Assembly: GCA_000743035.1 (NCBI GenBank)
Contig: CP008936.1
Coordinates: 30,001 to 62,000, forward strand
DNA from: Candidatus Paracaedimonas acanthamoebae
GTDB taxonomy: Bacteria > Pseudomonadota > Alphaproteobacteria > Caedimonadales > Caedimonadaceae
Length of the DNA stretch: 32,000 bases
Direction: 5' to 3'
Part shown: in pieces, positions 2,387-20,684 of the stretch
How positions within the stretch are numbered: the first letter of the stretch is position 1
Layout: every line of letters starts with the position of its first letter
The notes under the pieces: model-generated
The model's database searches: none
What the model saw: the letters and a program-made list of their open reading frames with translations, nothing else
What the model was told of the DNA's origin: nothing
Position numbers and translations under genes: made by a program

Positions 2387-2410
2387 TGGTAATGGCTGTT
2401 TTCCATTAAG

Positions 2411-4102: not shown

Positions 4103-4134
4103 CACATAGCATCCTTTAATTAGGCATTTATCTT

Positions 4135-7100
4135 TTATTTACTTTTTAGTAATTTAATTTTTCTGATTAGTATTCGATTTTGACCAGCGGCTTTTAAAAC
4201 TTTAACACGTATATACTTGGTAGGTTTTGCATCTTTTAAATTTATAATATGATGTTTTCCTTCAAGTTGGACTGATTGGGAATGTAAAATAACATTATTA
4301 TCGTCTAAGAATTCAATTAAATATTCTCTTCCAAAGTTCTTTTCATTTTCCCAAGTGATCTCAATTACTTTTAATAAAGTTTCTTTAGGCATCGCAATTG
4401 TAAAAAATTGAGGAAAAGGAGCATCTTCTTTAGTTGCTGCATAAGCTGTCCCATTCTTATTTTTAAAAATGAGATCAAATCCAAAACCATCATAGGTTGG
4501 AGAAGAGTCTAAAATATTTGAAGTTGAAGCAATATCTATAAGCTGTTCTTCTTTTTTATTCGTGTTATTTTTAAAAAACCACATATAAACTTTATCCCTT
4601 ATTTGCAAAAGAAAGCTTTTTTTAGTTTTTCTTTTATCAAGTCTAAATGAAAGATCAATCATTTTCTTTTCTATAATAGGAGAAAGAGACTTCTGGTTAA
4701 GCTCATAATAATACTGGTGTTTTTCAGCTTGCTGACCTGTAAACCAATCTTGATATTTTTTTGAAATCTCAGCCAATTGCTCAACATGATACTTTTGATA
4801 ATCTGGGCCTACAAACCATCCCATGTTTTGAGGTTGAATATTAAAATGCACTTCTTTCCATTGCTGATCACCATTACAATTCCAAATACCGCTTGGAATG
4901 GGCTCAAACTTTAAGACATTCCCTTCATTAATTGATTGTGTTTTAATTATAAATTTTCCTGGAGAAACATCTTTATACCGAATGATTAAACGATGTGTGG
5001 GAACTTCGAAATATTCATCAAAAGAAAAATTAGGTAGTGTCATAAACATAAATACATTATGTAATGTGCCGCCTTTTGGAGCTTTTTGGCGCTTTTTATA
5101 TCCGTTTTCAAAGAAACGTACATTTTTTCCATCAGAAGTTTTGGCTTGACCCCAATCATTTCCTGAAAGTTTACAAGGACCTTTAAAATCTCTCCCAAGT
5201 AAAGTGTCTATTTCAATATGAGAAGCTTCAGAGGTTGTGGGGTTAATTAAAATTACCTCATAAATTTCAGGGGAAGCTTCCCCACTTATCCAATCAATTT
5301 GAAATAAAAATTCTTTTTTTGGGTTTGTGTCATAGCGAAGCCAATACCCATTGTCATATTTATCATAAACATGGTGTAAAGTTTTTAATCCGACCTTTTT
5401 AAGATTTTTAAGAAATTCTTCTTTAACATATTTTGAAACTTCGTCAAAAGTAACAAGTGATGAGAGGTGAGCATTAAGAATATGCACAGCTTGGGGGACC
5501 TCTTCAAAAAAAGCTAAATTATTAAGGTAAGAGGCTTTTATCCCTCCTTGTGACAGGGGAATATTATAAGCTCTACATGCTCGTGTTAAAAGGTCTAAAA
5601 AGTTAATACCTGGTATAATAATTTGTTCATCAAGAGCTTTCCTAAAAGCTTTTATTACATAGCTTTGTCCAAAGGAAGATTGCCATGGAGCTTCAGTAAC
5701 GACGTCATTATAAGTATTAGGGAATTGGAAATACCAAACAAGTGCATCATCTTTAGGTTTTGCATTTTCTGTTAACCATTGGTATGCAGGCTTCCGTTTT
5801 ATATCTTGTATTTTTAAATTTTTAAGCCAAACAGAACCATCATAATAATATTTATTAGTGTGCAGTTCTTCAAAATCCATATGCTGGCTCATATCAAAAT
5901 AGCTTGGGTCTATGGCTTGTTGAGCCGTAATAAAAGGAGAGTACACAGGTTTGCCAATTTTACCTTTTCCATTCCATGCCCCACTTTTAAGAAAAGTGGT
6001 ATTTTTATCTTGAGAATGATAACGAACGACCCCTTTTTTATCCAACGTATATACAGGTAGAATAGTCGTTTGCTTTGGAAGATCATGTTTATGAGTTCTA
6101 ATAAGCTTACATTTAAAATTAGGTTTGTGGAGGTTGAGATAGGACAGAGCTTTATTTACCCATAATTCAAGAGCAGGTAAATCTTTTGCTAAGATTTCAA
6201 GATAGACGAGGTGTTTCTCGGCATAAGATTGACCTACCCAATATCCAAGATCTTCAGGTCTTACGGGGATTTTCCATGTGCGCCATTGATTAGAGCCCTT
6301 GAGTAAGAGATCGCTATTACGAAGTGTCTGAAATACAGCACCAGGCGCTATCGAACGTAATTGAACGTTAATATTGGCTTTTTCAATATCTTTATATTTA
6401 ATAATCAGTTCATAATGTTGAGTTCTCAAATTATCTATTTTCCCTGGTAAATCCAGATAAAAATAGGTGTGTGGGGCGTGATTAAGTGTCCCATCGTTTT
6501 CTTCTTGAGAACTTGCAGGCCAAACTGATTTAAGGCGACGTGTAGGTTTCTGGTCGATTGTTTCGGGCTGGCCCCAATCTATCCCACTAATCTTATCTTT
6601 CTGATTTGCATCATTCTCTGCCCCAACAACAATAATTGTTTCTTCGCCACTTAAAGGATCACGTAATGTAATATTTCCAATTGGTATTTGAGAAAGTTGA
6701 TATCCATAAGGATTATTGAATCTAAAACAGAGATTTTCTTTATTTGGGTTAAGATCATAACGTAACCAGTAACCCGAATCATAAAGAGGAAGCCAACGTT
6801 CTAAAGTTTCTAATCCTTTTTTGTAATAAGTTTCATATTTTTTATCTTTCGTGATGTCTGAAAGCTTTTTCAAAGCTAAAAGCGCTCTCATATGACCATT
6901 TAAGATATGTGTTGGATTTTCTTTTGGCTCGGGGACCTCTTCAAACCAAATATCCTCTCCTTGGACAAAGGCAAGGCCATTTTCTGAAAGAGGGAGCATT
7001 AAAACTTCAGCGGCTTTCTTGGCAAGTTCTAAATGTTCCTTATTGCCGTCAAGCTCATAGGAAGCGAGAAGAGCTTCAATGCCAACTGCCTGCGTAAAAG

Positions 7101-7482
7101 CACTATACCAGGGGGCCTTAATATATGAATCGTTATATGTGTTATCAAAATCAATAAGCCATACGCCTAAATTGTTTTTATATGTTTTTAGATTATCTGC
7201 TAACCATTTTACGCAAGCTTGAAATTTTCTATGATCTTTTTGTACAAGGGACGTTGTATCATAGGTTAAAACTCCCGCATAATGCAGAGCATAAACGGCT
7301 ACGCCACTAGGATGGTAAACTTGTCCTTTGATGCCTTGAATTTCTTGAACAGGAATACCATTATTGTCAGTCATATGTTTCGCTTGTGCAACATCTGTTT
7401 GTGCTGGTAATGCTAAGCAAATTTGAAATGATAATATAAGACTAATACAAAGTAACAAGAACTTGCTAATAATTTTATGCAT
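4135..7482 (-). CDS. Exported multidomain protein: two tandem D-glucuronyl C5-epimerase-like modules, each with a large beta-rich insert, plus a C-terminal discoidin (F5/8 type C)-like domain
   Basis: 1115-aa ORF with ATG start. Signal peptide MHKIISKFLLLCISLILSFQICLALPAQTDVAQA. Module 1 motifs: APWYSAFTQAVGIEALL, IWFEEVP..THILNGHMRALLAL, LPLYDSGYWLRYDL, SYAEKHLVYLEIL. Module 2 motifs: APWQSSFGQSYVIKAF, AFFEEVPQAVHILNAHLSSL, YDNGYWLRYDT, DYQKYHVEQLAEI. C-terminus: FFTIAMPKETLLKVIEITWENEKNFGREYLIEFLDD...YIRVKVLKAAGQNRILIRKIKLL. Confidence 0.8.
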   Translation of the reverse strand: MHKIISKFLLLCISLILSFQICLALPAQTDVAQAKHMTDNNGIPVQEIQGIKGQVYHPSGVAVYALHYAGVLTYDTTSLVQKDHRKFQACVKWLADNLKTYKNNLGVWLIDFDNTYNDSYIKAPWYSAFTQAVGIEALLASYELDGNKEHLELAKKAAEVLMLPLSENGLAFVQGEDIWFEEVPEPKENPTHILNGHMRALLALKKLSDITKDKKYETYYKKGLETLERWLPLYDSGYWLRYDLNPNKENLCFRFNNPYGYQLSQIPIGNITLRDPLSGEETIIVVGAENDANQKDKISGIDWGQPETIDQKPTRRLKSVWPASSQEENDGTLNHAPHTYFYLDLPGKIDNLRTQHYELIIKYKDIEKANINVQLRSIAPGAVFQTLRNSDLLLKGSNQWRTWKIPVRPEDLGYWVGQSYAEKHLVYLEILAKDLPALELWVNKALSYLNLHKPNFKCKLIRTHKHDLPKQTTILPVYTLDKKGVVRYHSQDKNTTFLKSGAWNGKGKIGKPVYSPFITAQQAIDPSYFDMSQHMDFEELHTNKYYYDGSVWLKNLKIQDIKRKPAYQWLTENAKPKDDALVWYFQFPNTYNDVVTEAPWQSSFGQSYVIKAFRKALDEQIIIPGINFLDLLTRACRAYNIPLSQGGIKASYLNNLAFFEEVPQAVHILNAHLSSLVTFDEVSKYVKEEFLKNLKKVGLKTLHHVYDKYDNGYWLRYDTNPKKEFLFQIDWISGEASPEIYEVILINPTTSEASHIEIDTLLGRDFKGPCKLSGNDWGQAKTSDGKNVRFFENGYKKRQKAPKGGTLHNVFMFMTLPNFSFDEYFEVPTHRLIIRYKDVSPGKFIIKTQSINEGNVLKFEPIPSGIWNCNGDQQWKEVHFNIQPQNMGWFVGPDYQKYHVEQLAEISKKYQDWFTGQQAEKHQYYYELNQKSLSPIIEKKMIDLSFRLDKRKTKKSFLLQIRDKVYMWFFKNNTNKKEEQLIDIASTSNILDSSPTYDGFGFDLIFKNKNGTAYAATKEDAPFPQFFTIAMPKETLLKVIEITWENEKNFGREYLIEFLDDNNVILHSQSVQLEGKHHIINLKDAKPTKYIRVKVLKAAGQNRILIRKIKLLKSK

Positions 7483-7492
7483 TCTCTCTCAT

Positions 7493-9382
7493 TCAGTTTA
7501 AGCTTGGTTTGAAAGTGCTATACCACATTTGGAGAGAAAGCGCACCCCATAAATCTCGGCTAAAACCTTGGTCATTATTTAACAAATTTTCAACATATTT
7601 CTTCTGGAAAAGGTTCTCAGGATTATTATTGAGTAGAGTATCGTGCAAGAAACCTTTGAGTTCATTTTTAGCCCATACATCTAAGGGAACAGGAAAACCT
7701 TTTTTATCAGTTCTATTTAATACTTTTGGCGGAAGATATTCTGAAATTGCTTTCGTAAAGATGTATTTCATCTTACCATCTTTAATCTTGAGCGTATCAG
7801 GAATACTAAACGCATATTCAACAAGTCGATAATCTAGTAAGGGGACTCGTGATTCAATACTATTTGCCATGCTGACCCGATCCTCAACATGCAATAACGA
7901 TTGTAAATGGGTTTTTAGATCAAAATACATGTTTTGACTAAAAAGAGAATTTTCAAAGCGGTTACCATAAATCAAGGAAAATTCTTCATAAATTCTTTCT
8001 TGGTTAAAGGACAAATCGCATGCCAAAAAATTGGAGGATTGTTTGAAGCGGTTAATAAGATGAAAATATCTGGCGCTGTTTTCTTCAAATAGACCTTTAG
8101 ACCAATAAGAACGCAACATAGGGACGTAACTTGATAGAACGCTTAAATTATTTTCTAAGTCGCCTAGTTTATAAGAAGTAACATTAGAAGTCGTTGAAGG
8201 AAGTATCGCTTTTTTAATTGCTTGTTCTAAGGCAAAAATAAGGTATCGAGCATACCCACCAAATATCTCATCTCCTCCTTGCCCACCAACAACAACTCTT
8301 AAGTGCTTAGAAACTTCTTGGGAAATTAAATATTGAGGAAAAACTCCTGGGCCCGCAGCTGGTTCATCCATGTGCCAAATGATCTTTTGTAAATGTTGCT
8401 GAAATTCAGAAGCAGAGATGTATTTAACAATATGTTCTGCATCAGTTACTTTCGCAACTTCTCTCGCGTATTCTGTTTCATCGTAAGCAAGACCTTCTTG
8501 GAAAGCACCCGTAAAAACTTTTATATGCGCTTGAGGAAAGTGAGAACGCATAAGAGAAGTGACAGCTGAAGAATCTAGCCCACCAGAGAGATAAGCTCCT
8601 ACAGGTACATCTGCAGTCATATGAATATTTACGGATTGTGAAATTAATTCTTTTAGTTCTTCGGTGATGACTTCTTCGCTTTTATGATGAACTTGTTCTT
8701 GGGGAACATCCCAATATTGATTTATCTGTAAACCTTTATCAGGTGAAAAAATAAGATTATAGCCAGGTTCAAGTTTTTTGATATTTTCAAAAAGGGTTTT
8801 ATTCCCCAGCGTAAATTGAAAAGTTAAATATTCTTCTAAAGCAGGTTTGCAAACAATGGGGGCAATAATTTTTGTTGCTAAAATAGCTTTAATTTCTGAG
8901 GCAAAAACAAAGTTTTTGCCATCATCATAGTAATAAAAAGGTTTGATGCCTAAGCGATCTCTTGAGCAGAAAAGTAAATTTTTTCTTTGGTCATATAAAG
9001 CAAAGGCCCACATTCCATTGAAATAATTTACGCAATTTTCTCCCCAATGGAGGTATGCCTTTAATATAACTTCGGTGTCAGAATTGGTTTTAAAAGAGTA
9101 TCCTTCTTGAATGAGTAAAGCTCTGATTTCTTTATAATTAAAAATACATCCATTAAAAATAATTTGATTTCCGGAGGCGTGGCAAGCCATGGGTTGTTGA
9201 GCATGACCGGGATCAATAATAGATAAAATAACATGACCAAGACCAAGAGTTTTATCTAATGTAATAAAGGTACCTTGTCCATCTGGTCCCCGATAAGTGA
9301 TAGTTTGAAGCATTTTCTTTAAGGTTAAAAGAATGTCCTCATCTGAAAAATCTTTAGAATAAATCCCAACAATACCACACAT
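7493..9382 (-). CDS. asnB: Asparagine synthetase B-type glutamine-dependent amidotransferase (glycan-cluster paralogue)
   Basis: 629 aa. The N-terminal MCGIVGIY gives the Cys2 nucleophile of class II glutamine amidotransferases. SGGLDSS is the PP-loop ATP pyrophosphatase motif. Length and layout are typical of AsnB. The ATG lies 1 nt after the stop of the upstream glycosyltransferase gene. Confidence 0.85.
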   Translation of the reverse strand: MCGIVGIYSKDFSDEDILLTLKKMLQTITYRGPDGQGTFITLDKTLGLGHVILSIIDPGHAQQPMACHASGNQIIFNGCIFNYKEIRALLIQEGYSFKTNSDTEVILKAYLHWGENCVNYFNGMWAFALYDQRKNLLFCSRDRLGIKPFYYYDDGKNFVFASEIKAILATKIIAPIVCKPALEEYLTFQFTLGNKTLFENIKKLEPGYNLIFSPDKGLQINQYWDVPQEQVHHKSEEVITEELKELISQSVNIHMTADVPVGAYLSGGLDSSAVTSLMRSHFPQAHIKVFTGAFQEGLAYDETEYAREVAKVTDAEHIVKYISASEFQQHLQKIIWHMDEPAAGPGVFPQYLISQEVSKHLRVVVGGQGGDEIFGGYARYLIFALEQAIKKAILPSTTSNVTSYKLGDLENNLSVLSSYVPMLRSYWSKGLFEENSARYFHLINRFKQSSNFLACDLSFNQERIYEEFSLIYGNRFENSLFSQNMYFDLKTHLQSLLHVEDRVSMANSIESRVPLLDYRLVEYAFSIPDTLKIKDGKMKYIFTKAISEYLPPKVLNRTDKKGFPVPLDVWAKNELKGFLHDTLLNNNPENLFQKKYVENLLNNDQGFSRDLWGALSLQMWYSTFKPSLN

Positions 9383-9383
9383 A

Positions 9384-10598
9384 TTATTTCTCTAATTCTG
9401 TATATAAATTTAAAAGTTTCTTTTCTTGTGCTGGCCAACCAATCTCAATTTCTGCTTGTAAAAAATTTTCAAGGGGAAAATAGTCGTTAGCTTTAAGCTC
9501 TAACATATTTTTAATGGCCTCAGCTATGCTTAATGGAGTTAACATAGAATGAGTTTTTCCAATTTTGTAACCATCTACAAATTTTACAAGTTCGGGAAGA
9601 TTAGAGGCACAAATTGGAACTCTGGCATGAATATATTCAAACAACTTATTAGGTGTACAATAATGATTATTTAAAATTTTATCTCCTAAATAAGGGATAA
9701 TACCTAAATCTGCTTTTTTTAGTATGCTGATCAATTCCGATTGAAGAACCCAATCGTGAAAAATTACATTACTCAAGTTATTCTTGGTAACTATTTCTTG
9801 AAGATTTTGTTTTAAAGGGCCTTCTCCAAGAAACAATAAAGTAGCTTGATCTTTTAAATATTCAAAAGCCAAAGTTAAATTTTCTAGATTCCGTTCTTTT
9901 CCAAGTGAACCTTGAAATAAAACGAGATTTTTTGTTTTTTTTGCTGAAAGGAATAAAGGATTGATGGCATCGAAACCTGATTGCTTTTGAAAAGGGGAGA
10001 TTCCGTAGGAATTTAAAATGGTAATAATGTTAGAATTAGTAATTCTTTTGCTTAAAATAGTTTTAATACTATCATTGACGGCAATAATGGCATCAACTCT
10101 TTTACACAATTTAACTTCTAATTTGTTCCATGAATTTGCCTCAATCCGTAGAGGAAATTGTTCTCCCCAAAGCTCATGAGAATCATATAGAACTTTTTTA
10201 ACCTTAAGTCGGTGCCTTAAGATATATGCTGCTTTTAAAGTTGAAAGATCATGAGCGTGTATATAATCAAATTCTTCACATGGTGTATTTTTAATCAAAT
10301 ATTTGGTTGTCTTGTAAAATTCAATATAACGCCTGTAAATAAATTTTATAAAATTTGCGACCGGTGTAGCTAATAAAGAACAGATACATGTAAAAATTTT
10401 TTGTTTTTTAGAAGGTATTTGATTAAATGCTTGATGAATAATGCGGATAGAGGGGCTCACTTCTGCTTTAAAGTCACCTTGGATAGGAACAGAAACGAGA
10501 GTAACAGAATATTTTTTAGCATCCAGGGCATTTAGCTGTGCAATAATTCTTCGATCTAATGAAAAACTATGAGCCGAAAGAACTAAGATTTTTTTCAT
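9384..10598 (-). CDS. Glycosyltransferase, GT4 (GT-B fold) family
   Basis: 404 aa. N-terminal KILVLSAHSFSLDRRIIAQLNAL, then IHAHDLSTLKAAYIL...VLYDSHELW, and a C-terminal WbuB-like motif YCTPNKLFEYIHARVPICASNLPEL. Paralogous to the neighbouring 508-aa ORF. Confidence 0.75.
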   Translation of the reverse strand: MKKILVLSAHSFSLDRRIIAQLNALDAKKYSVTLVSVPIQGDFKAEVSPSIRIIHQAFNQIPSKKQKIFTCICSLLATPVANFIKFIYRRYIEFYKTTKYLIKNTPCEEFDYIHAHDLSTLKAAYILRHRLKVKKVLYDSHELWGEQFPLRIEANSWNKLEVKLCKRVDAIIAVNDSIKTILSKRITNSNIITILNSYGISPFQKQSGFDAINPLFLSAKKTKNLVLFQGSLGKERNLENLTLAFEYLKDQATLLFLGEGPLKQNLQEIVTKNNLSNVIFHDWVLQSELISILKKADLGIIPYLGDKILNNHYCTPNKLFEYIHARVPICASNLPELVKFVDGYKIGKTHSMLTPLSIAEAIKNMLELKANDYFPLENFLQAEIEIGWPAQEKKLLNLYTELEK

Positions 10599-12093
10599 TT
10601 TGAGCGAAAAGTGTTTGAATAATGTTAATAAAAATAGGAGATTCTTGCTCCCAAGAAAATTTATTTTTCTGTTGCCTTAGAGCTTCTTTAGCCTGCTTTT
10701 TGTCAAGCCGAATCATTTTTTCTAAATTTCTACTAATACTTTTTGCTGAGCTAAAATCAGCTTCAATAGCGCACTCCTGAAATTCTGAGAGCATTTTTTT
10801 TACTTGAAAAAGATGCTTATTATAAAGAATAGGAAGTTCTGCTTGTATAAATTCAAACATTTTATTTGGAGTGCAATAGGTTGTGTTAAAATCACAAGCA
10901 GGATAAGGAATAATCCCAAAATCAGCTGAGGAAGAAATTCGAATCAGATCTTCTTGAGAAACGGCCTCTAAGAGATGGATGTTCTTATTACCACGAATCA
11001 TCGTTTCAATTTCTTTTTTAAAAAGAGGATCATATATCCCTAAAATAACAAGATGAAAATCATTCCTCTTTAGAGCTAGTACACCTCTGATCATTTCTTT
11101 AATATTTCGATTCTTAAGAACACCCCCCTGGTAAAGCCCAATCGTGTCATTTTTCGAAATATTTAACATTTCCCGAAGGACATTGCTTTTGTAGGTTGGA
11201 GACATTCTAGAGACATTATGTATAATGTAAGGGAGAGAGATATTATACTTTTTTTTCATTAACTCAGCAAAAGTGTCATTAATTGTAATAACGGCCGAGC
11301 ATTTTTTAATGTATTCTTGCTCTACTTCCATCATTATTTTTTTTTGTAAAGAAGAAAAAGCTTTTTGCTCATAATAAAACTCATGAGCATCATAAAGAAA
11401 AGGAACCCCTTTTTCTTCAGCAAGTAAAGCGCCTGCTTTGAGAGATGGTAAATCATAGGAAATAACAAGGTTAGCTTTATATGGTTTAGCTGTGTTGTAA
11501 AATACTAGATCAAAAGGGAGAGGCATATAAATTCCCTTGGGTCTATACTTTAAAGCTAAATGAAAATTGTACAATAAACTATTTAAACGTGTAAATACTT
11601 TCTTCTTATACAGATAATTCACAGGTAAGAGTATACTTCTTTTTAATAAATTCTTTACCGTTACTCTATATTTTTTTGCGAAAGTCCTTATAGAAGGGGT
11701 GCTCTTGTCTTGCTCAGAAAAGGGAATTGTTCTTAAGCGAAAATTTAAACGATGAATTGTATTTTCTATGTAATAATACCGCTTATAAAATGACCAATAT
11801 GCAATACAATCAGGGATAATTTGTGATAATCCAAAACGATGAATATAGAAAAGATCATGAACCTTTTCTACGGAACTTTCACTGCTTTTGGCTAAGCAAA
11901 CAAGCAGAACTTGCATCCCTAGGGTATTGAGAGTTTCAATTTGTTGTGCAACTCTTCGATCAAGATCTTGATCATGACAAATCATAACAACTTTTTTATG
12001 GTTAGTTTGTAGATTCCACTCTTCAAGAATCTGTTTTGGAACTAATGAGTTAATAATTTCTTGTTTATATAATTGAAAGGCATTAGTGGTCAT
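10567..12093 (-). CDS. Glycosyltransferase, GT4 (GT-B fold) family, with an enlarged N-terminal half
   Basis: 508 aa. Motifs VVMICHDQDLDRRVAQQIETLNTLG, FLYDAHEFYYEQ and YCTPNKMFEFIQAELPILYN match the 404-aa paralogue in the same order. Its 3' end overlaps the next start by 32 nt. Confidence 0.75.
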   Translation of the reverse strand: MTTNAFQLYKQEIINSLVPKQILEEWNLQTNHKKVVMICHDQDLDRRVAQQIETLNTLGMQVLLVCLAKSSESSVEKVHDLFYIHRFGLSQIIPDCIAYWSFYKRYYYIENTIHRLNFRLRTIPFSEQDKSTPSIRTFAKKYRVTVKNLLKRSILLPVNYLYKKKVFTRLNSLLYNFHLALKYRPKGIYMPLPFDLVFYNTAKPYKANLVISYDLPSLKAGALLAEEKGVPFLYDAHEFYYEQKAFSSLQKKIMMEVEQEYIKKCSAVITINDTFAELMKKKYNISLPYIIHNVSRMSPTYKSNVLREMLNISKNDTIGLYQGGVLKNRNIKEMIRGVLALKRNDFHLVILGIYDPLFKKEIETMIRGNKNIHLLEAVSQEDLIRISSSADFGIIPYPACDFNTTYCTPNKMFEFIQAELPILYNKHLFQVKKMLSEFQECAIEADFSSAKSISRNLEKMIRLDKKQAKEALRQQKNKFSWEQESPIFINIIQTLFAQNEKNLSSFGS

Positions 12094-12095
12094 AT

Positions 12096-13184
12096 TTATT
12101 TTTGCCCCTCTAATTCTTTAAAAAGTTTACTAAGTATATGAAAAATATAGTTTTTTTTTCTCATATTGTAACTTTCTAAATTAATTTCTTGGTTGTAAAT
12201 AAACCATTTCGGTATTTTTGTCCAATCATCTTTATTTGCACGAATCCGCGGGAGTAAAAACTGAATTCCCTGAGACCATTTTTGAGCAATATATTTGGGT
12301 TCTTCTTCAAGAAGGGTGGTTTGATTTAAATTTGGCCTACTCTGTTTGGCAACAGGAACAGATTCGTAAGGATATATCTCAAGCTCTCTTGTGATATTAT
12401 TATTTCTTGGTTTTTTATTCTTAGAAAATATGGCGATGCATTCATTACAATTTGGGCGATCTTGAATATGACTAACCTCTAAATCAAAATAAACCTTAGA
12501 GAGAATATCTAGCATTTTACCTTCAAGGGCATTGCCTTTTGTTAACTTGCTTGAACAGAGGGGGCAGCATGCATGAGGCCATGTTTTTAGGACGCCAAGC
12601 ATCGCACATATATCGTCATGAATAATTTGTGAATATGGTAATTGATCGCCAGAATAAATTATTTTCTCGCACTGAAAATTATCCTTTTGCAGTGCTAATA
12701 ACTTTTTAACATCAAAAGATCTTTGATGGTGATTGATATGAAAAATATGACCACAGTCACAACATTGGGTTTTATAGGCATCAAGGTTTTCCATAAAAGG
12801 CACGGTAATAATTACATAGTCTTTAGCAACTCTTATAAGTTCGCTAATGACAGTTTCATACTCATTTTCATAGATATGTTCGATAACATCATTGACCATA
12901 ACAAGATCATAAGAATTGTCTGCAAACGGAAGCGCTGAAAGATTTGCAACAACTTTGTTACAACCCAAATTTTTTATAGCTTGATAGCTCCAATCAAGCG
13001 CCGTTACATGATATTGAGGTGGTATTTTTTCGGTAATTAAACCATTCCCACATCCTGCATCTAAAATAGTTCTCACGCCCTCAGGAATGTTAGCAACAAT
13101 ATCAAAAAATACGTTTTTTTGATAAGAAGCTATTTCTGTATCCCATAAAGCCTCTTGTTGGTAATAAGCAATTTTATTTGACAT
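12096..13184 (-). CDS. Class I SAM-dependent methyltransferase with a Cys-rich insertion and a C-terminal extension
   Basis: SAM-binding motif I ILDAGCGNGLITEKI and post-I/II DLVMVNDVIEHI. Cys clusters: CCDCGH, CCPLC, CNEC. The ORF extends to GTG 13235. I prefer ATG 13184 (MSNKIAYYQQ), which overlaps the wzt stop by 11 nt (ATGTCAAATAA). Confidence 0.75.
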   Translation of the reverse strand: MSNKIAYYQQEALWDTEIASYQKNVFFDIVANIPEGVRTILDAGCGNGLITEKIPPQYHVTALDWSYQAIKNLGCNKVVANLSALPFADNSYDLVMVNDVIEHIYENEYETVISELIRVAKDYVIITVPFMENLDAYKTQCCDCGHIFHINHHQRSFDVKKLLALQKDNFQCEKIIYSGDQLPYSQIIHDDICAMLGVLKTWPHACCPLCSSKLTKGNALEGKMLDILSKVYFDLEVSHIQDRPNCNECIAIFSKNKKPRNNNITRELEIYPYESVPVAKQSRPNLNQTTLLEEEPKYIAQKWSQGIQFLLPRIRANKDDWTKIPKWFIYNQEINLESYNMRKKNYIFHILSKLFKELEGQK

Positions 13185-15018
13185 GAACGCTGGCCTTGAA
13201 AGGTTGAATACAAATACCTCGTTCAAATTTCTCACTTAAGGGATCAAATATTTGAAAAAAGTACGATCTATCAATCAAGTGATAAGCTTCTGATTCTAGC
13301 CGGTCATATCTTAAATTTTTAAAAATAGCTACGCTTGCTACGTAATGACCATTCCCTAAAAACAATTTATCTATAGCAAAAGAAAATACCCCAGAATTCT
13401 CTATCAAGGCTTGATTAAGATCTGAGGTATTCGAGAGGAATTGAGCAATACATTTTCCATCGTTACTGTAAATGCAAAAGACAAATACCGGGTTCATGAC
13501 AGGAGAATTTGCAGTATAATGAAGCTCTATTGTAAGAGATTTTCCAGAGATTAAAACCCTTTTATCTTCATTGTCTTGGATCAATTTAACTTGTGTTAAC
13601 TCTATTTCTTTTGAGCCTTTTTCATATTTGGAAGAGTCTTGTAATACTGTCGATTCGGTAGAAGAAGAGAGTGTAGGAGATTCTATAATGCCATTTTCAT
13701 CATTTTCTTCTGGAGAGTTTAGAACTTCATTGGTTTGCACCAAGCTAAAAGGAAAAATTATTTTATGAGTATCGTTTTTTGTTGGAGTTAATTTTCCAAC
13801 TTGCTGGTAAGCATTCAAATTTTCCATAAATATTTCAATGGAACCCACGACATTGGAGGAATAAGTAACTTCTAAAGAAAGTTCATTCTTTGATGTTAAA
13901 TAATTTTCAGGCAATAGGAATTGAAATGGAGCATGCTGAAATTTAGAATTTCTATCATAAACGGCCCTAAAGGAGCCAAATTCATCCTTCTCACGCTCGC
14001 CCCAATCCATATCCTTTTTTGAATAAAGAATATATGCAGGTAAAGATGTATCATCATCATAAGTAGAGCCTGGGATTAACTCATTAATGATTTTATCATT
14101 ATGGAGAATACTGATCTTATAAATTCTTATAGGTTGATCATTCAATGGCTGCCCATCACCATAAATACGGAACAATATAGGTTCATCTATAGAGGTAGAT
14201 TTCATGGGTGAAATATGACTACGGGAAATCTTCATTTCTTTAGATTTTAACCTGAGTTCTTCTTTTTTATGAGAATAGCTAGCATATTCTTTCACAATGG
14301 AAAGAGGATCACCATCTGCAATAATTTGGCCATTTTTGATCCAAATACATCTGTTACATAAATGTTGGATACTGCTCATATCATGAGAGACAAAAATAAC
14401 CGTAATATTATTATTTTCTGTGAGGTTCTTCATGCGTTCAATGCATTTACCCGTAAAATAAGCATCTCCAGCACTTAAAACCTCATCAACCACCATAATT
14501 TCAGGTTCTATCGCAGTTGTTACTGAGAATGCTAACCTCGCGAACATTCCAGAAGAATAAGTCTTTATGGGATGATATATAAAATCTTCAAGTTCAGAAA
14601 AATCAATGATATCCGCTCTTTTTTGTTCTATTTCCTTTTCTGGTATTCCGTGAATGGCAAGATAAGTGTAAATATTGTCGTATCCTGTCATATCGGAATG
14701 AAACCCAGTCCCTAATTCTAGAAAGCTTTGAATTTTTCCTTCAATGCGAACGACCCCCGTTGAAGGGTGTGCGTTTCCTGAGATTATTTTTAGAAGGGTA
14801 CTTTTTCCCGCGCCATTTTCTCCAATAATTCCTAATCTCTCGCCTTTTTTAACAAATAAATTTATATCATTAAGGGCATAGACTTCTCTCTTGGAAATGT
14901 GTTTCCAAGGCATTAGCTTACCCAGGCCGCTTAAATCAATGAATTTATCACTATTATTTTCATAAAGAGTGTATTTCTTGCTTAACTTTTCAATATAAAG
15001 AGAAAATTGATTAGACAT
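13174..15018 (-). CDS. wzt: Polysaccharide ABC exporter ATP-binding subunit (Wzt/TagH type) with a ~380-aa C-terminal extension of two extra domains
   Basis: Walker A GENGAGKST, signature YSSGMFARLAFS, Walker B IMVVDEVLSAGD, H-loop VSHD. The C-terminal ~140 aa (VKLIQDNEDKRVLISGKSLTIELHY...LGNGHYVASVAIF) resemble the Wzt glycan-binding beta-sandwich. The ORF opens at TTG 15075. ATG 15018 (MSNQFSLYIEKLSKKY) overlaps the wzm stop as ATGTCTAA. Confidence 0.85.
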   Translation of the reverse strand: MSNQFSLYIEKLSKKYTLYENNSDKFIDLSGLGKLMPWKHISKREVYALNDINLFVKKGERLGIIGENGAGKSTLLKIISGNAHPSTGVVRIEGKIQSFLELGTGFHSDMTGYDNIYTYLAIHGIPEKEIEQKRADIIDFSELEDFIYHPIKTYSSGMFARLAFSVTTAIEPEIMVVDEVLSAGDAYFTGKCIERMKNLTENNNITVIFVSHDMSSIQHLCNRCIWIKNGQIIADGDPLSIVKEYASYSHKKEELRLKSKEMKISRSHISPMKSTSIDEPILFRIYGDGQPLNDQPIRIYKISILHNDKIINELIPGSTYDDDTSLPAYILYSKKDMDWGEREKDEFGSFRAVYDRNSKFQHAPFQFLLPENYLTSKNELSLEVTYSSNVVGSIEIFMENLNAYQQVGKLTPTKNDTHKIIFPFSLVQTNEVLNSPEENDENGIIESPTLSSSTESTVLQDSSKYEKGSKEIELTQVKLIQDNEDKRVLISGKSLTIELHYTANSPVMNPVFVFCIYSNDGKCIAQFLSNTSDLNQALIENSGVFSFAIDKLFLGNGHYVASVAIFKNLRYDRLESEAYHLIDRSYFFQIFDPLSEKFERGICIQPFKASVHVK

Positions 15019-15802
15019 GGTCAAGAAGTTCTTTTTTAAATTTGTTAAAAAGGTATATGCCGAATAAAAGGACAAGACTACTCAAGCAAGCTAATTTTAT
15101 TAAATTCATAAATAAGATATTATTATAAATTAATAAATCTTGATAAAAAGAGATAAACCAACTTAGAGGATTATAGTTATTAATTGCCATCTTATTCCCT
15201 ACACTTGAAGCTCTGTAAGCAATAGGACTGATAAGCATGAGCAATAAGAGAAGTGGTTGAATAAAATTAACAATATCTTTAAAGAAAATAGATAAGGGAG
15301 AAAAGATTAATGCAAGTCCAATATTAAATATAATTTGAAAAGTATATACGACAAAAACCAGTAATATACTAAAAGAAAAAGATTTTAAATTAAAAATCAG
15401 GCAAGCAAATATTAAAAACAAAAAAGCTAAAGTATAAGTAACATAGGAGACTAAAACCGATTTTATAGGAATTAATGATATATCAAAAGAGCAGTTTTTA
15501 ATAAGGGAAAGATTAGACATGATTGAAACTGAAGATGTAGAAACTGCAGACGAAAAACTCAAGAATGGTAATAGGCCGGCTAATAGAATAAAAATGTATT
15601 CCAAAGAAGAAGTGCCAATGATATTTCGGCTGAATAAATGGGTATAAACAAAATAATAAGCTAATACTAAAATACAAGGTTGGATTAAAACCCACAATAA
15701 TCCAAGCACAGAACCTGCGTATTGTTGCCTAATGTCAATATTTACAAGTGAGTATAAAATACGTACGTGTTTAAGAAAATTGTTTAAATAATTCTTGTTC
15801 AT
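15011..15802 (-). CDS. wzm: Polysaccharide ABC exporter permease (ABC-2 type, Wzm/TagG)
   Basis: About 263 aa and highly hydrophobic, with about six predicted membrane spans. It sits immediately upstream of wzt and is translationally coupled to it. The ORF opens at TTG 15814; ATG 15802 (MNKNYLNNF) is the likelier start. Confidence 0.8.
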   Translation of the reverse strand: MNKNYLNNFLKHVRILYSLVNIDIRQQYAGSVLGLLWVLIQPCILVLAYYFVYTHLFSRNIIGTSSLEYIFILLAGLLPFLSFSSAVSTSSVSIMSNLSLIKNCSFDISLIPIKSVLVSYVTYTLAFLFLIFACLIFNLKSFSFSILLVFVVYTFQIIFNIGLALIFSPLSIFFKDIVNFIQPLLLLLMLISPIAYRASSVGNKMAINNYNPLSWFISFYQDLLIYNNILFMNLIKLACLSSLVLLFGIYLFNKFKKELLDHV

Positions 15803-15942
15803 ACAATAAGCCAATCAAAACATTGTCGTGTGGAATAAGAGGTAACCCATTTAAGTATAGCAACCTAAATAAATCTTATAACCAAACAAGACCTAAAAAG
15901 CTATATGATAATTAGGGTTTTCTATGAAGACAAAATTATATG

Positions 15943-17823
15943 TTATTTAATTTCAGATAACATAATTTCATTAATCATCATGTAAATTCGTTCACCATTA
16001 TTCCTATGATTTATATAAAAAATTTCTTCAGGACTTTTTGCTGTAAAAATAATATTCCATTGATTTATTCTTGGCGCTTGATAAGAATATGTAAAGGTTG
16101 AATAGGGCGAGGCACCTAAGCTTCCGCGAGCAGCTTCTACTATAAAAAACGGATAATCACGAGTATTTCCACCCATACTACTAAACAAATATGTAAGCTT
16201 ATATTTTCTTCCTTTTGTAAGTAAATGAAGTTTTAGCTTGTGGTTAATATTAAGAAAGGTGTTGCCAAGCGCATGCCCACCTTGATGAAAAAAAGCAGAA
16301 GTTGGTTTTTTTAAGTCAATAATATCATTAGGCTCAAGGTTTAATGGAAAAAACATAGGGTTATCTAGGGTGGTAACTCCTGCTGGATCTGATTGTTTGT
16401 ACATATTTATACTTGTGTAATGTTGAGCAAGTTCTCCACCTCTAAGATGTCTTTTTTTATTTAATATCATTTGTTTTATGTTGTAATCTTTTTTACTTGA
16501 ACGCAATTCGGCAAAATTGAAAACTTCCATCTTTCCATTATCATTGAGTTTATAAAAGTAAGTAGTATAGGTTGGATCGAGGGCTATCCATTTATTGTTA
16601 AGAAGTATTTCTAAAATAACGTGCCCAGTATTTTTAGGATAGTTATACATCTCGATAATGCGAGATTTGATATGTTGGGTGTTAAGCATAGCTGCAAGTA
16701 ATCTTGAAAAAGTGCCACAATGCCCTTTCTTTTGCTTTAACGCTGCGACAAGCTCGTGCTTAAAAATTGTTACATCAGGTACTGCTTGCATAAACTCTTT
16801 ATTGTACATAGAAAGCAAGAGTATCTTTTCCAAATCATCCTTAGGTTTATTTTTTTCGATAAGTTTATCACTAATTAACTTTATTATTATTGGTATAGGG
16901 GAGATAGCATCTTTGAGAGGAAAGTCTAGGGCTTCACCTTCTAAAAATGGGAAATAATACGCTGCCTCTAGAATGGTGTTTGCTATAACAATTTCTGATA
17001 AATAAATAATTTTATCTTTTTCAATATCATCAAGGTAGTTAAAAGCTGCTCGAAGTTGGGTTAAAGTATCTTGCGTATTCAAAATTATATTTTTTAATTT
17101 CTTGCCTTTTTCACTTATAAAGCTTTGAGCGAGTCGTTCTTTAAATTTATTACGACCAAATATGAAATCAGCCATGGCATTAAGAGGATTCCCCCCTTGC
17201 TTAATAGCAACAAGGTATTGATCAAATTTGGGAATGGCCTGGTCAATAATGCTTTTTAAATAGTTTTCTTCAGAGGAAGCTCCATTCTTAAGCTTCATAG
17301 TAATTGGAATTAATATACCTTGGGAGTAGACAAGCCATTCATCAACTTCTGGTGACCCGATAATAATATAACTCTGGTCTTTAACCTTGAAACTTCTTAG
17401 AAAGACTTGGGAATAAGGGTTTGTGGAAAATAAGGGATAAAAGTTTTTGAATTTAAATCGATATTTCCCAGTAACATCTGATAACTCATTATCTAAAATT
17501 TGCCATTGGGAAGGCAGAGAAGTATTAGGTATTTCCAATTCTATAAGTGTTGAATCATTAATTTTATCTGATTTCTGAGTAGTCAAAGATACTTCTTTAA
17601 AATTGGCGTGAATAAAAGCTGTTTTACTTTTAGATGTAAGAAAAGTTATTTTTCCTAAAGTAAAATAATATTGTTGTTCATTCAAAATGTGGAGCTTTAA
17701 AAAGATTTTTTCAAGATTAGAATTTAGGAAAATAAATTTTTTATTTGATAATAAAAAAGGATATGAAATTCCTAAAATCATTGTTAAGAAACAGAAAATA
17801 AAAACGCGTTTCTTCATAAACAT
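15943..17823 (-). CDS. Exported or membrane-anchored transglutaminase-like (papain-fold Cys-His-Asp) protein. Its N-terminal domain is shared with the NHL proteins.
   Basis: 626 aa. N-terminal hydrophobic segment MFMKKRVFIFCFLTMILGISYPFLL. Residues ~150-290 (IIGSPEVDEWLVYSQGI...IKQGGNPLNAMADFIFGRNKFKERL) align with the C-terminus of the 564-aa protein. Putative triad: GHC(369)GTFSRLLAAML, GH(401)VILEIL, WIALD(416)PT, with the spacing typical of transglutaminase-like cores. Confidence 0.7.
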   Translation of the reverse strand: MFMKKRVFIFCFLTMILGISYPFLLSNKKFIFLNSNLEKIFLKLHILNEQQYYFTLGKITFLTSKSKTAFIHANFKEVSLTTQKSDKINDSTLIELEIPNTSLPSQWQILDNELSDVTGKYRFKFKNFYPLFSTNPYSQVFLRSFKVKDQSYIIIGSPEVDEWLVYSQGILIPITMKLKNGASSEENYLKSIIDQAIPKFDQYLVAIKQGGNPLNAMADFIFGRNKFKERLAQSFISEKGKKLKNIILNTQDTLTQLRAAFNYLDDIEKDKIIYLSEIVIANTILEAAYYFPFLEGEALDFPLKDAISPIPIIIKLISDKLIEKNKPKDDLEKILLLSMYNKEFMQAVPDVTIFKHELVAALKQKKGHCGTFSRLLAAMLNTQHIKSRIIEMYNYPKNTGHVILEILLNNKWIALDPTYTTYFYKLNDNGKMEVFNFAELRSSKKDYNIKQMILNKKRHLRGGELAQHYTSINMYKQSDPAGVTTLDNPMFFPLNLEPNDIIDLKKPTSAFFHQGGHALGNTFLNINHKLKLHLLTKGRKYKLTYLFSSMGGNTRDYPFFIVEAARGSLGASPYSTFTYSYQAPRINQWNIIFTAKSPEEIFYINHRNNGERIYMMINEIMLSEIK

Positions 17824-17857
17824 TGCCTTTTAAAATTTTGAATGAGCGCTACATAAG

Positions 17858-17886
17858 TGGATAGTGAAAAAGGAGTGAATAGTCAA
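17858..17886 (-). promoter_or_regulatory. Candidate sigma70-type promoter for the glycan operon
   Basis: The minus strand reads TTGACT-N17-TATCCA, about 35 nt upstream of ATG 17823. The -10 is weak because its last base is A. Confidence 0.25.
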
Positions 17887-17990
17887 GAATTTCGAGCTAA
17901 AAGCTATAGAAAAAGCGCGGAGAGAGATTTGTTGATAACGGCTTTATCTCACTGAAATTTTATGAAAATTATTTCTTCAGCTGATTTTTT

Positions 17991-19547: not shown

Positions 19548-19552
19548 GAGCT

Positions 19553-20584: not shown

Positions 20585-20661
20585 TTTAAAAAATTCTCCC
20601 TGAATGAATTATTTTCCTTCTTTTTGATAGAACATTAAGAAGGATGCAAGTATTAAATATC

Positions 20662-20676
20662 GTCTCAATGTCTCAA
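20662..20676. repeat. Tandem direct repeat GTCTCAA-T-GTCTCAA between the rhlE stop and emrA
   Basis: Two exact 7-mers with 8-nt periodicity. They read TTGAGAC-A-TTGAGAC on the coding strand of emrA, about 80-90 nt upstream of its ATG. Confidence 0.5.
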
Positions 20677-20684
20677 AGAAAGGA

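What the first reader, a model, noticed from the sequence alone, without database searches (positions are those of the whole stretch)
13738..14184. Wzt carries a middle domain resembling the insert of the exported epimerase-like protein
Between the ABC ATPase core and the terminal Wzt-type beta-sandwich (nt 13177..13608) lies an extra ~150-aa segment, aa ~298-446 of the 633-aa ORF. Its motif order parallels the inserts in the 1115-aa protein. IRIYKISILHNDKIINELIPG resembles EIYEVILINPTTSEASHIEID. KKDMDWGEREKDEFGSFRAVY resembles SGIDWGQPETIDQKPTRRLKSVW and SGNDWGQAKTSDGKNVRFF. QHAPFQFLLPEN resembles NHAPHTYFYLDLPG. ELSLEVTYSSNVVGSIEIF resembles YELIIKYKDIEKANINVQL. A common module in a cytoplasmic exporter ATPase and in a Sec-exported tailoring enzyme suggests a shared recognition domain for one glycan feature, read on both sides of the membrane. 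Known Wzt proteins, as I recall them, carry a single C-terminal carbohydrate-binding module.
Basis: seen in the sequence. Interest (0 to 1): 0.7.

Follow-up and report, generated by a model that had tools for sequence, protein, structure and literature searches.

The report
Shared beta-sandwich in Wzt and epimerase
The ATPase that exports a cell-surface sugar polymer carries an extra, undescribed ~145-residue domain that is truly related to a domain inserted at the active site of the exported enzyme that later modifies the same polymer, so it is probably a new sugar-chain-binding module used on both sides of the membrane.

Summary
The window is from Candidatus Paracaedimonas acanthamoebae. Its Wzt (13174..15018, minus strand) has a compact all-beta domain (ORF aa 298-443, nt 13747..14184) between the ABC ATPase and the Pfam Wzt_C module.

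Pairwise, its likeness to the two inserts of the 1115-aa C5-epimerase-like protein is no better than chance. Independent AlphaFold models (pLDDT 94 and 91) show the same strand order.

A bridging protein exists: a single-barrel C5-epimerase whose insert resembles the Wzt version. In 21 of 22 epimerase loci with enough upstream flank, from many phyla, a Wzt with this domain lies 3-6 kb upstream. Some clusters also place the domain in a WbdD-like methyltransferase with a coiled coil.

In the epimerase the domain sits between the equivalents of catalytic Tyr560 and Tyr578 of human GLCE. It matches no Pfam or NCBIfam model and no solved fold, and it is not a Wzt_C duplicate.

Best reading: a new carbohydrate-binding-type module for one polymer. 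Homology is shown. Glycan binding is inferred.

The parts
13174..15018 (-). wzt gene: ABC-transporter ATPase of the glycan exporter, 614 aa from M20. The mechanical ORF extends to 15075 from a TTG.
   Evidence: P0121, 100% identical, 614 aa. PDB: Aquifex Wzt 8dku, E 2e-63, over the ATPase only.
14266..15018 (-). Nucleotide-binding (ABC ATPase) domain, ORF aa 20 to about 270.
   Evidence: Pfam ABC_tran aa 68-199, E 8.9e-19. PDB matches cover P0121 aa 43-246.
13747..14184 (-). The finding: middle beta-sandwich domain of Wzt, ORF aa 298-443. Family-invariant residues are G336, W358 and R370; H381-A382-P383-F384 and Y423 are nearly invariant.
   Evidence: AF2 model pLDDT 94 with 11 strands. 44 relatives, 43 of them Wzt-like (same position in the full-length ones) and one a C5-epimerase. 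hhalign to the epimerase inserts 97-98%. No Pfam or NCBIfam model.
13627..13746 (-). Ser/Thr/Glu/Asn-rich linker between the middle domain and Wzt_C, ORF aa 444-483.
   Evidence: Translation. Lies outside both domain models.
13213..13626 (-). Wzt_C terminal carbohydrate-binding-type domain, ORF aa 484-621.
   Evidence: Pfam PF14524, E 1.3e-16. Unrelated to the middle domain at profile level (0.4%).
15011..15814 (-). wzm: ABC-2 permease partner, overlapping the wzt start.
   Evidence: Pfam ABC2_membrane. Same Wzm-Wzt order in L001, L002, L032, L034 and L035.
4135..7482 (-). 1115-aa exported protein: signal peptide, then two units of C5-epimerase alpha-helical domain with an inserted beta-sandwich, then an F5/8 type C domain.
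   Evidence: 188 homologues, the listed ones 37-48% identical (one 81%) over most of the length; insert columns have occupancy about 1.0.
6262..6735 (-). Insert 1 (aa 250-407): beta-sandwich homologous to the Wzt middle domain. It lies between Y242 (human GLCE Y560 equivalent) and Y420 (Y578 equivalent).
   Evidence: AF2 pLDDT 90.8. hhalign. The mid HMM hits aa 248-375 at E 7e-4. Deleting the insert restores alignment to the GLCE C-terminus.
4828..5310 (-). Insert 2 (about aa 725-885): second copy of the same beta-sandwich, in the second epimerase unit, between Y717 and Y895.
   Evidence: BLASTP insert 1 against insert 2, E 1e-18. hhalign ins1 against ins2 99.9%. Mid family against insert 2, 96.3%.
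6748..7362 (-). C5-epimerase catalytic alpha-helical domain, unit 1 (aa 41-245).
   Evidence: Pfam C5-epim_C, E 8.5e-51 for the whole protein (two stretches, the best aa 103-246). PDB 4pw2 and 6hzz. Catalytic-residue equivalents conserved.
5323..5820 (-). C5-epimerase catalytic alpha-helical domain, unit 2 (aa 555-720).
   Evidence: Second C5-epim_C stretch. Local barrel HMM, E 2e-32. Conserved E661, N670, Y717 and Y895.
4162..4503 (-). F5/8 type C (discoidin) domain at the C-terminus of the epimerase protein.
   Evidence: Pfam PF00754, E 6.9e-7. Unrelated to the shared domain.
12096..13235 (-). SAM-dependent methyltransferase with Cys-rich segments, directly downstream of wzt and overlapping it. 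Probable chain-end modifier. This copy lacks the shared domain.
   Evidence: Pfam Methyltransf_11/25. Sequence. Orthologous position in L007, L029 and L034, where the protein does carry the domain plus a coiled coil.
15943..17823 (-). Transglutaminase-core protein. It is the free-standing counterpart of the C-terminal domain fused to the epimerase in Legionella, Pseudomonas and others. Candidate WbmE-like polymer deamidase.
   Evidence: Pfam Transglut_core. BLASTP to P0029 aa 1085-1387, E 2e-26. WbmE precedent: PMC2615507.
7493..12093 (-). Asparagine-synthase-like amidotransferase (7493..9382) and two GT4-type glycosyltransferases (9384..10598 and 10567..12093) of the same cluster.
   Evidence: Pfam. 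The same gene set recurs in L001, L002, L034 and L035.
1376..4105 (-). UDP-GlcNAc 2-epimerase (1376..2386) and an NHL-repeat beta-propeller protein (2411..4105) at the end of the cluster.
   Evidence: Pfam Epimerase_2, E 1.5e-94, and NHL. An NHL plus C5-epimerase fusion exists (P0072).

Best explanation
The segment is a genuine, previously undescribed beta-sandwich domain of about 145 aa. It is homologous to the domain inserted in each of the two C5-epimerase units of the neighbouring exported 1115-aa protein.

Both proteins belong to a conserved, widely distributed ABC-transporter-dependent glycan gene cluster. The cluster holds Wzm/Wzt, a methyltransferase, GT4 glycosyltransferases, an asparagine-synthase-like amidotransferase, UDP-GlcNAc 2-epimerase (in other genomes also WbpA/B/D/E-like genes), a C5-epimerase and a transglutaminase-like enzyme. 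Together these should make a uronic-acid or uronamide-type polymer.

The most likely function is a carbohydrate-binding-type module for that polymer. In the cytoplasm it would give Wzt a second grip on the chain, beside the terminal Wzt_C module. After export it would hold the chain at the active-site cleft of the polymer-level epimerase. In some clusters it would also equip the WbdD-like terminating methyltransferase.

Shown here: the domain exists, the homology is real, the predicted strand order matches, the genes co-occur, and the insert sits between catalytic residues. Inferred: that the ligand is the glycan, which feature of it is read, and what the polymer is chemically.
For: Homology:
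- hhalign 96-98%, E 1.7e-9 to 2.6e-13, over about 140 columns, with failed shuffle and reverse controls.
- Direct HMM cross-hits in the correct register: insert HMM to the Lutispora Wzt, E 4e-7; mid HMM to the window epimerase, E 7e-4; ten other epimerases at E below 1. The local database holds 1192 ORFs.
- Bridging protein P0152: C5-epim_C at aa 115-247, then a Wzt-like domain at aa 266-406. Whole-library phmmer E is 1.1e-4.

Fold: two independent AF2 models (pLDDT 94 and 90.8) are all-beta, and each of the 11 Wzt strands has a counterpart in the same order.

Shared invariant residues across Wzt, both inserts and (W in 3 of 3, R in 2 of 3, Y in 3 of 3, G in 2 of 3) the methyltransferase version: G336, W358, R370 and aromatic 423.

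Same pathway:
- 21 of 22 epimerase loci with at least 5 kb of upstream flank carry a Wzt of 584-632 aa (one ORF of 960 aa) with this domain. They include Bacillota, Legionella, Pseudomonas, Coxiellaceae, a Rickettsia endosymbiont, Hyphomicrobium, Desulfobacterales and others.
- Starting from Wzt, an epimerase is nearby in L002, L032 and L034.

Third host acting on the same chain: methyltransferase + this domain + coiled coil in L007, L029 and L034 (E 1e-8, 4e-5 and 4e-14).

Position in the enzyme: with the insert removed, the epimerase aligns through to the GLCE C-terminus. The insert lies between the Y560 and Y578 equivalents. E499, N510, Y560 and Y578 equivalents are conserved in 117-120 of 120 homologues in both units (residue list from PMC13308652).

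Opposite sides of the membrane: 111 of 118 epimerase homologues have an N-terminal hydrophobic segment, whereas Wzt is the cytoplasmic ATPase. The polymer is the obvious entity that both meet.

Precedent for periplasmic post-export modification of a Wzm/Wzt-exported uronamide O-chain: WbmE (PMC2615507).
Against: - There is no direct evidence of carbohydrate binding. The domain resembles no known CBM or any solved fold (Foldseek against PDB: no hit at E <= 1e-3, TM <= 0.37).
- The conserved W, R and G could be structural rather than ligand-contacting. Model coordinates could not be inspected.
- The coupling is not obligatory. The Nitrospiraceae locus L006 has the epimerase with inserts but a 454-aa Wzt without the domain. 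L001 and L035 have the Wzt domain but no epimerase within the flanks fetched.
- The Wzt and epimerase versions are very divergent (13-24% identity in the profile alignments), so they may bind different things.
- The window's own copy departs from the family motif VGxPMDN (it reads PGSTYDDD).
- Co-occurrence could simply reflect inheritance of one gene cluster.
- The two models could not be superposed, so no TM-score is available.
Confidence: 0.6

Rival explanations
1. The domains are homologous, but the domain is a structural spacer, oligomerisation module or protein-docking module rather than a glycan reader. In Wzt it would position or dimerise the Wzt_C modules under the ATPase. In the epimerase it would act as a lid or a dimer interface.
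For: No similarity to any known CBM. The Wzt version sits in a linear chain between two domains, whereas the epimerase version is an insertion. Some Wzt proteins carry two copies in tandem (P0127), as spacers might. L006 does without it.
Against: The hosts sit on opposite sides of the membrane and have no obvious common protein partner. The third host, the terminating methyltransferase, again acts on the polymer. The insert lies between catalytic tyrosines. W and R are invariant across all contexts, which is typical of sugar or acid-group binding. None of this is decisive.
Confidence: 0.25
2. The domain binds a feature common to all lipid-linked intermediates, for example the undecaprenyl-pyrophosphate-proximal primer or the methylated chain end, rather than the repeating backbone.
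For: Wzt, the terminator methyltransferase and periplasmic enzymes all meet the Und-PP-linked, capped chain. A methyltransferase always follows wzt.
Against: Wzt already has Wzt_C, the module known to read chain ends in characterised systems (established knowledge of the E. coli O9a and Klebsiella O12 Wzt proteins). An epimerase that acts on internal residues needs the backbone. Nothing here discriminates between the two.
Confidence: 0.1
3. The middle domain is a degenerate duplicate of the Wzt_C carbohydrate-binding module, and its likeness to the epimerase insert is secondary.
For: Both are beta-sandwiches of about 140-150 aa and they sit next to each other.
Against: hhalign of the mid family against the Wzt_C family gives 0.4% (score 13.8); inserts against Wzt_C give 1.6%. 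Pfam Wzt_C does not hit the region. Wzt_C structures are absent from the Foldseek hits.
Confidence: 0.04
4. The motif matches are chance in AT-biased, low-complexity sequence.
For: Pairwise statistics within the window are at background.
Against: Profile-profile E values of 1e-10 to 3e-13 with failed shuffle controls, a bridging protein, matching predicted folds, and conservation in GC-rich genomes such as Pseudomonas and Thauera.
Confidence: 0.01

Closest known systems
Wzt of ABC-transporter-dependent O-antigen export (E. coli O9a, Klebsiella O12/Raoultella, Aquifex aeolicus; PDB 7k2t, 8dku; Pfam PF00005 + PF14524)
   Same: ABC ATPase paired with a Wzm ABC-2 permease, a C-terminal Wzt_C beta-sandwich, and a methyltransferase gene next door that could cap the chain.
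   Different: An extra domain of about 145 aa from an unrelated sequence family lies between the ATPase and Wzt_C. The solved Aquifex Wzt is 404 aa and matches only the ATPase. Some relatives carry the extra domain twice.
Heparan-sulfate D-glucuronyl C5-epimerase GLCE (PDB 4pw2, 6hzz; Pfam PF06662)
   Same: The alpha-helical catalytic domain is the same. Equivalents of E499, N510, Y560 and Y578 are conserved. GLCE acts on uronic acid within a polymer.
   Different: The unit is duplicated, and each unit has a beta-sandwich of about 160 aa inserted between the Y560 and Y578 equivalents. The Y500 position is Ile or Val. The protein is bacterial, has a signal peptide, and carries an F5/8C domain or a fused transglutaminase domain. 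Its substrate is unknown.
Carbohydrate-binding modules appended to or inserted in polysaccharide-active enzymes (CAZy CBM concept)
   Same: A small beta-sandwich recurs in several different proteins that act on one polymer, with an invariant aromatic residue and an invariant Arg.
   Different: No sequence or fold match to any solved module, and no Pfam or NCBIfam model. Binding is untested. Use of one module by both a cytoplasmic transporter ATPase and an exported enzyme is unusual.
WbdD chain terminator of E. coli O9a (methyltransferase/kinase with a coiled-coil ruler)
   Same: In L007, L029 and L034 the gene after wzt encodes a methyltransferase with a long C-terminal coiled coil.
   Different: Those proteins carry the shared beta-sandwich between the methyltransferase and the coiled coil. 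No kinase domain was found. The window's methyltransferase (379 aa) lacks both the beta-sandwich and the coiled coil.
WbmE of Bordetella bronchiseptica and AlgG of alginate biosynthesis (periplasmic post-polymerisation modification)
   Same: An exported transglutaminase-core enzyme and a C5-epimerase accompany a Wzm/Wzt cluster that also encodes asparagine-synthase-like amidotransferases. This is the logic shown for uronamide deamidation by WbmE (PMC2615507).
   Different: Direct homology to WbmE itself was not tested. AlgG is a beta-helix epimerase of a different fold. The polymer here is unknown.

Membership tests
Wzt (glycan ABC exporter ATPase with CBM) | ABC ATPase domain closely related to characterised Wzt or TagH proteins | tested here: met
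   Pfam ABC_tran, E 8.9e-19. PDB 8dku/7k2t Aquifex Wzt, E 2e-63.
Wzt (glycan ABC exporter ATPase with CBM) | Adjacent Wzm ABC-2 permease gene | tested here: met
   ORF 15011..15814 matches ABC2_membrane. The same order holds in related loci.
Wzt (glycan ABC exporter ATPase with CBM) | C-terminal Wzt_C domain (PF14524) | tested here: met
   aa 484-621, E 1.3e-16, above the gathering score.
Wzt (glycan ABC exporter ATPase with CBM) | Export of an Und-PP-linked, end-capped glycan | not testable with these tools
   Inferred only from gene content (methyltransferase, GT4s, Wzm).
Wzt_C / PF14524 (as the identity of the middle domain) | Sequence-profile similarity to Wzt_C | tested here: not met
   No Pfam hit in aa 270-483. 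hhalign mid against Wzt_C gives 0.4%.
Known solved folds or CBM families (as the identity of the middle domain) | Significant structural match to a PDB chain | tested here: not met
New shared domain family (Wzt-mid / epimerase insert) | Profile-profile homology over the full domain, with controls | tested here: met
New shared domain family (Wzt-mid / epimerase insert) | Same fold | tested here: inconclusive
   Both AF2 models are confident and all-beta with the same strand order, and their weak PDB hits overlap (2okm, 3u6g, 2biq). No superposition or TM-score could be computed.
New shared domain family (Wzt-mid / epimerase insert) | Binds the cluster's polysaccharide | not testable with these tools
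   Needs binding assays.
D-glucuronyl C5-epimerase family (PF06662) for the 1115-aa protein | C5-epim_C domain above the gathering score | tested here: met
   E 8.5e-51, two stretches. PDB 4pw2 and 6hzz.
D-glucuronyl C5-epimerase family (PF06662) for the 1115-aa protein | Catalytic residues E499, Y500, N510, Y560 and Y578 (human GLCE; list from PMC13308652) | tested here: inconclusive
   Four of five are conserved in both units in 117-120 of 120 homologues. The Y500 position is Ile or Val.
D-glucuronyl C5-epimerase family (PF06662) for the 1115-aa protein | C5-epimerisation of a uronic acid within a polymer | not testable with these tools
   No biochemical data. The substrate is unknown.
WbmE-like periplasmic polysaccharide deamidase (for ORF 15943..17823) | Transglutaminase core domain | tested here: met
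   Pfam Transglut_core, E 6.1e-11.
WbmE-like periplasmic polysaccharide deamidase (for ORF 15943..17823) | Orthology to Bordetella WbmE and deamidase activity | not tested
Only the literature analogy applies.

The most novel reading that the evidence does not exclude
The domain founds a new carbohydrate-binding module family that recognises one specific uronic-acid or uronamide backbone. It is reused as a common substrate handle by every machine that processes the finished chain: the terminating methyltransferase, the Wzt export ATPase and the post-export C5-epimerase. One glycan-reading module would then operate on both faces of the cytoplasmic membrane within a single pathway, which is found from Holosporales endosymbionts to Pseudomonas, Legionella and Firmicutes.
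Probability: 0.45. Interest if true: 0.75.

Novelty: new variant of a known kind. Interest (0 to 1): 0.62.

Why it matters
Wzt proteins are the model for how ABC transporters recognise a finished polysaccharide. So far the known logic is one terminal module that reads the chain cap. A second, unrelated module would point to a two-point recognition mechanism and to a new binding-module family.

The same module sits in the polymer-level epimerase, between two catalytic tyrosines, and in some chain terminators. That suggests a pathway-wide substrate handle.

The finding also flags a widespread, uncharacterised gene cluster for a uronic-acid-type surface polymer with post-export epimerisation and probably deamidation. 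The cluster occurs in culturable hosts (Pseudomonas mosselii and P. putida, Legionella nagasakiensis, Lutispora saccharofermentans, Hyphomicrobium zavarzinii), so the idea can be tested directly.

Tried and rejected
- BLASTP and Smith-Waterman with shuffles inside the window gave no significance. The pairwise route is uninformative.
- Word-indexed homologue searches with the isolated domains found nothing. Full-length and exhaustive searches were needed.
- The search for related loci with the mid-only alignment failed because no stretch was conserved enough.
- Middle domain as a Wzt_C duplicate: rejected.
- Relation to the F5/8 type C domain of the epimerase: rejected (4-10%).
- The window's own methyltransferase was checked for the domain and has none.
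- Literature searches for this cluster, for a C5-epimerase linked to Wzt, or for ManNAc3NAcA/GulNAc3NAcA epimerisation found nothing specific.
- The exact sugar could not be deduced. WbpA/B/D/E-like genes occur in related loci but not in this window.
Full report
WHAT IS THERE. The window matches Candidatus Paracaedimonas acanthamoebae (Holosporales, an amoeba endosymbiont). The 1115-aa protein is 100% identical to hypothetical protein IM40_00135. Positions 1-18 kb hold a minus-strand glycan gene cluster:
- UDP-GlcNAc 2-epimerase (1376..2386)
- NHL-repeat protein (2411..4105)
- 1115-aa double C5-epimerase-like protein (4135..7482)
- asparagine-synthase-like amidotransferase (7493..9382)
- two GT4 glycosyltransferases (9384..12093)
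- methyltransferase (12096..13235)
- Wzt (13174..15018)
- Wzm (15011..15814)
- transglutaminase-core protein (15943..17823)

The cluster is 27-37% GC, against 39-45% for the housekeeping genes to its right.

CHECK OF THE OBSERVATION. Pfam finds ABC_tran at aa 68-199 and Wzt_C at aa 484-621, with nothing between. NCBIfam also has nothing there.

Within the window alone the likeness to the epimerase inserts cannot be told from chance. BLASTP gives a best E of 1.9, elsewhere in the protein. Smith-Waterman z-scores against 1000 shuffles run from -0.3 to 1.6. The two inserts are clearly homologous to each other (E 1e-18).

BRINGING IN RELATIVES. Word-indexed searches with the isolated segments found nothing. 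The full-length epimerase found 188 homologues; the 120 listed are 37-48% identical (one at 81%) over 81-100% of the length. They come from Pseudomonas, Legionella, Brevibacillus, Lutispora, Thauera and others, and many are fused to a transglutaminase core. In their alignment the insert columns have occupancy about 1.0 and are among the best conserved. The inserts are therefore an integral part of this bacterial family.

An exhaustive phmmer search of 1.84 billion representatives with Wzt aa 275-480 found 44 relatives. The full-length ones are Wzt-like proteins of about 580-750 aa with the match at residues about 250-440, which is the same architecture; a dozen shorter entries are fragments. 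Their alignment defines a family with the motifs LFRF, VGxPMDN, W, R, HAPF and Y..LG.

One hit, P0152, is not a Wzt. It has a signal peptide, a C5-epim_C domain at aa 115-247, and then the Wzt-type domain at aa 266-406, exactly at the insert position. It bridges the two families.

THE DECISIVE COMPARISON. hhalign of the Wzt-mid family, with P0152 left out, gave these results:
- against the insert-1 family: 97.6%, E 4e-12
- against the insert-2 family: 96.3%, E 1.7e-9
- against both: 98.0%, E 2.6e-13, score 82, about 142 aligned columns

Twenty column-shuffled versions scored 8-24 (best E 0.003) and the reversed alignment 11.6. The session's own hhalign tool compared a mid-only alignment with the full-length epimerase alignment. 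It gave 97.0%, E 9.6e-11, and placed the match on the insert-1 columns.

HMM-to-sequence cross-hits also occur in the right register, in a local database of 1192 ORFs:
- insert HMM to the Lutispora Wzt, E 4e-7
- mid HMM to the window epimerase aa 248-375, E 7e-4
- mid HMM to ten other epimerases, E below 1

STRUCTURE. AlphaFold2 with independent alignments gave confident models. Wzt aa 295-449 scored pLDDT 94 and pTM 0.89 and has 11 strands. Epimerase aa 243-425 scored pLDDT 90.8 and pTM 0.86. Read against the hhalign register, every Wzt strand has a counterpart in the same order in the insert. The insert adds one short helix, one short strand and the helix that leads back into the catalytic domain.

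The domain is not a Wzt_C duplicate (0.4%) and is unrelated to the F5/8C domain (4-10%).

WHERE THE INSERT SITS. With the insert deleted, epimerase unit 1 aligns with human GLCE to chain residue 519 of 527. The key catalytic residues of GLCE are E499, Y500, N510, Y560 and Y578 (PMC13308652). With an offset of 90 between chain and residue numbers, their equivalents in the window protein are as follows:

| GLCE residue | Unit 1 | Unit 2 |
|---|---|---|
| E499 | E182 | E661 |
| Y500 | V183 | V662 |
| N510 | N195 | N670 |
| Y560 | Y242 | Y717 |
| Y578 | Y420 | Y895 |

Four of the five are conserved in 117-120 of 120 homologues. The Y500 position is Ile or Val. The beta-sandwich is therefore inserted between two catalytic tyrosines, at the rim of the substrate cleft.

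Of 118 homologues that start with Met, 111 have an N-terminal hydrophobic segment, which is consistent with export.

GENOMIC ASSOCIATION. A scan of one genome per species with the epimerase alignment gave 28 loci from many phyla. Local HMM annotation shows a Wzt of 584-632 aa (one ORF of 960 aa) with the middle domain plus Wzt_C, 3-6 kb upstream, in 21 of the 22 loci that have at least 5 kb of upstream flank. The exception is a Nitrospiraceae MAG whose Wzt is an ordinary 454-aa protein.

Starting from Wzt-mid proteins instead, an epimerase is adjacent or nearby in L002, L032 and L034. None lies within the flanks of L001 and L035.

The constant companions are Wzm, a methyltransferase (alone, fused to a GT4, or fused to a coiled coil), GT4s and asparagine-synthase-like genes. 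Several loci also have WbpA/B/D/E/I-like genes (UDP-sugar dehydrogenase, GFO/IDH/MocA oxidoreductase, DegT aminotransferase, hexapeptide acetyltransferase, 2-epimerase), which suggests a 2,3-diacetamido-mannuronic-acid-type precursor. That last step is inference from the established Wbp pathway.

A THIRD HOST. In L007 (Lutispora), L029 (Proteocatella) and L034 (a metagenome), the gene after wzt encodes a methyltransferase, then this same domain (mid HMM E 1e-8, 4e-5 and 4e-14), then a long coiled coil. This architecture recalls the WbdD chain terminator. A merged alignment shows G336, W358, R370 and aromatic 423 (Wzt ORF numbering) as near-invariant in Wzt, in both inserts and in P0152. In the three methyltransferase versions, W and the aromatic residue are kept in all three, and G and R in two of three.

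INTERPRETATION. Three classes of protein carry one module: a terminator, an exporter ATPase and an exported epimerase. What they have in common is the polymer they handle, and they sit on both sides of the membrane. In the enzyme the module lies at the catalytic cleft.

The simplest explanation is a polymer-binding (CBM-type) module. This is inference; no binding data exist. The main rival is a structural or docking role.

The broader pathway logic has an experimental precedent in Bordetella WbmE (PMC2615507). That logic is cytoplasmic synthesis and amidation, Wzm/Wzt export, then periplasmic epimerisation and probably deamidation by the transglutaminase-core protein. The window's transglutaminase-like ORF is homologous (E 2e-26) to the domain fused to the epimerase in Legionella.

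VERDICT. The functional reading is plausible and strengthened but untested. The domain has no Pfam or NCBIfam model, no solved relative and no literature that I could find. I rate it a new variant of a known kind: a Wzt with an additional, novel putative binding module shared with the pathway's polymer-modifying enzyme.

Noticed in passing
L007:5482-7710, L029:4561-6477, L034:10830-12980: The gene directly after wzt encodes a methyltransferase, then the same beta-sandwich domain, then a long C-terminal coiled coil (WbdD-like terminator architecture). This is a third host for the domain. The window's methyltransferase (12096..13235) lacks both the domain and the coiled coil.
   Followed up: partly
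P0152 (L002:10001-11974): A single-unit C5-epimerase whose insert is closer to the Wzt version than to the double-epimerase inserts. It has a weak GH130-like C-terminal region and is followed by an integrase and an IS91 transposase that interrupt the cluster.
   Followed up: partly
P0127, P0134, P0140 (Wzt-like, 731-753 aa): These longer Wzt proteins have room for two middle domains in tandem. A second, weaker copy was detected in P0127 (aa 420-547, E 5e-4).
   Followed up: partly
window 15943-17823 (-): A free-standing transglutaminase-core protein is homologous (E 2e-26) to the C-terminal domain that is fused to the double epimerase in Legionella, Pseudomonas, Thauera and others. This is a fusion/fission pair and a candidate WbmE-like polysaccharide deamidase.
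   Followed up: partly
window 1-18000 versus 18000-28000: The glycan cluster is 27-37% GC, whereas the neighbouring efflux, helicase and DnaK region is 39-45% GC. Together with the patchy distribution of the cluster across phyla, this suggests horizontal acquisition.
   Followed up: no
window 2-1345 (-) and 2411-4105 (-): Two NHL-type beta-propeller proteins flank the UDP-GlcNAc 2-epimerase gene. One database homologue (P0072, 1662 aa) fuses NHL repeats to the double epimerase, so the propeller may be another extracytoplasmic component of the modification machinery.
   Followed up: no
L006:6045-7406 and L006:9057-13141: In a Nitrospiraceae MAG the Wzt is an ordinary 454-aa protein without the middle domain. 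The epimerase reading frame appears split (274 aa plus 1123 aa), which may be a frameshift or an assembly error.
   Followed up: no
window 13174-13235 and 15011-15018: The wzt 3' end overlaps the methyltransferase ORF by about 60 nt, and wzm overlaps the wzt start. This is typical of translationally coupled operon genes. The mechanical ORF start (TTG at 15075) is probably not the real start, which is M20 at 15018.
   Followed up: partly
window 4135-7482 (-), aa 183 and 662: The position equivalent to catalytic Y500 of human GLCE is Ile or Val throughout this bacterial family, while the other four listed catalytic residues are conserved. This hints at a modified catalytic arrangement or a different substrate.
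   Followed up: partly
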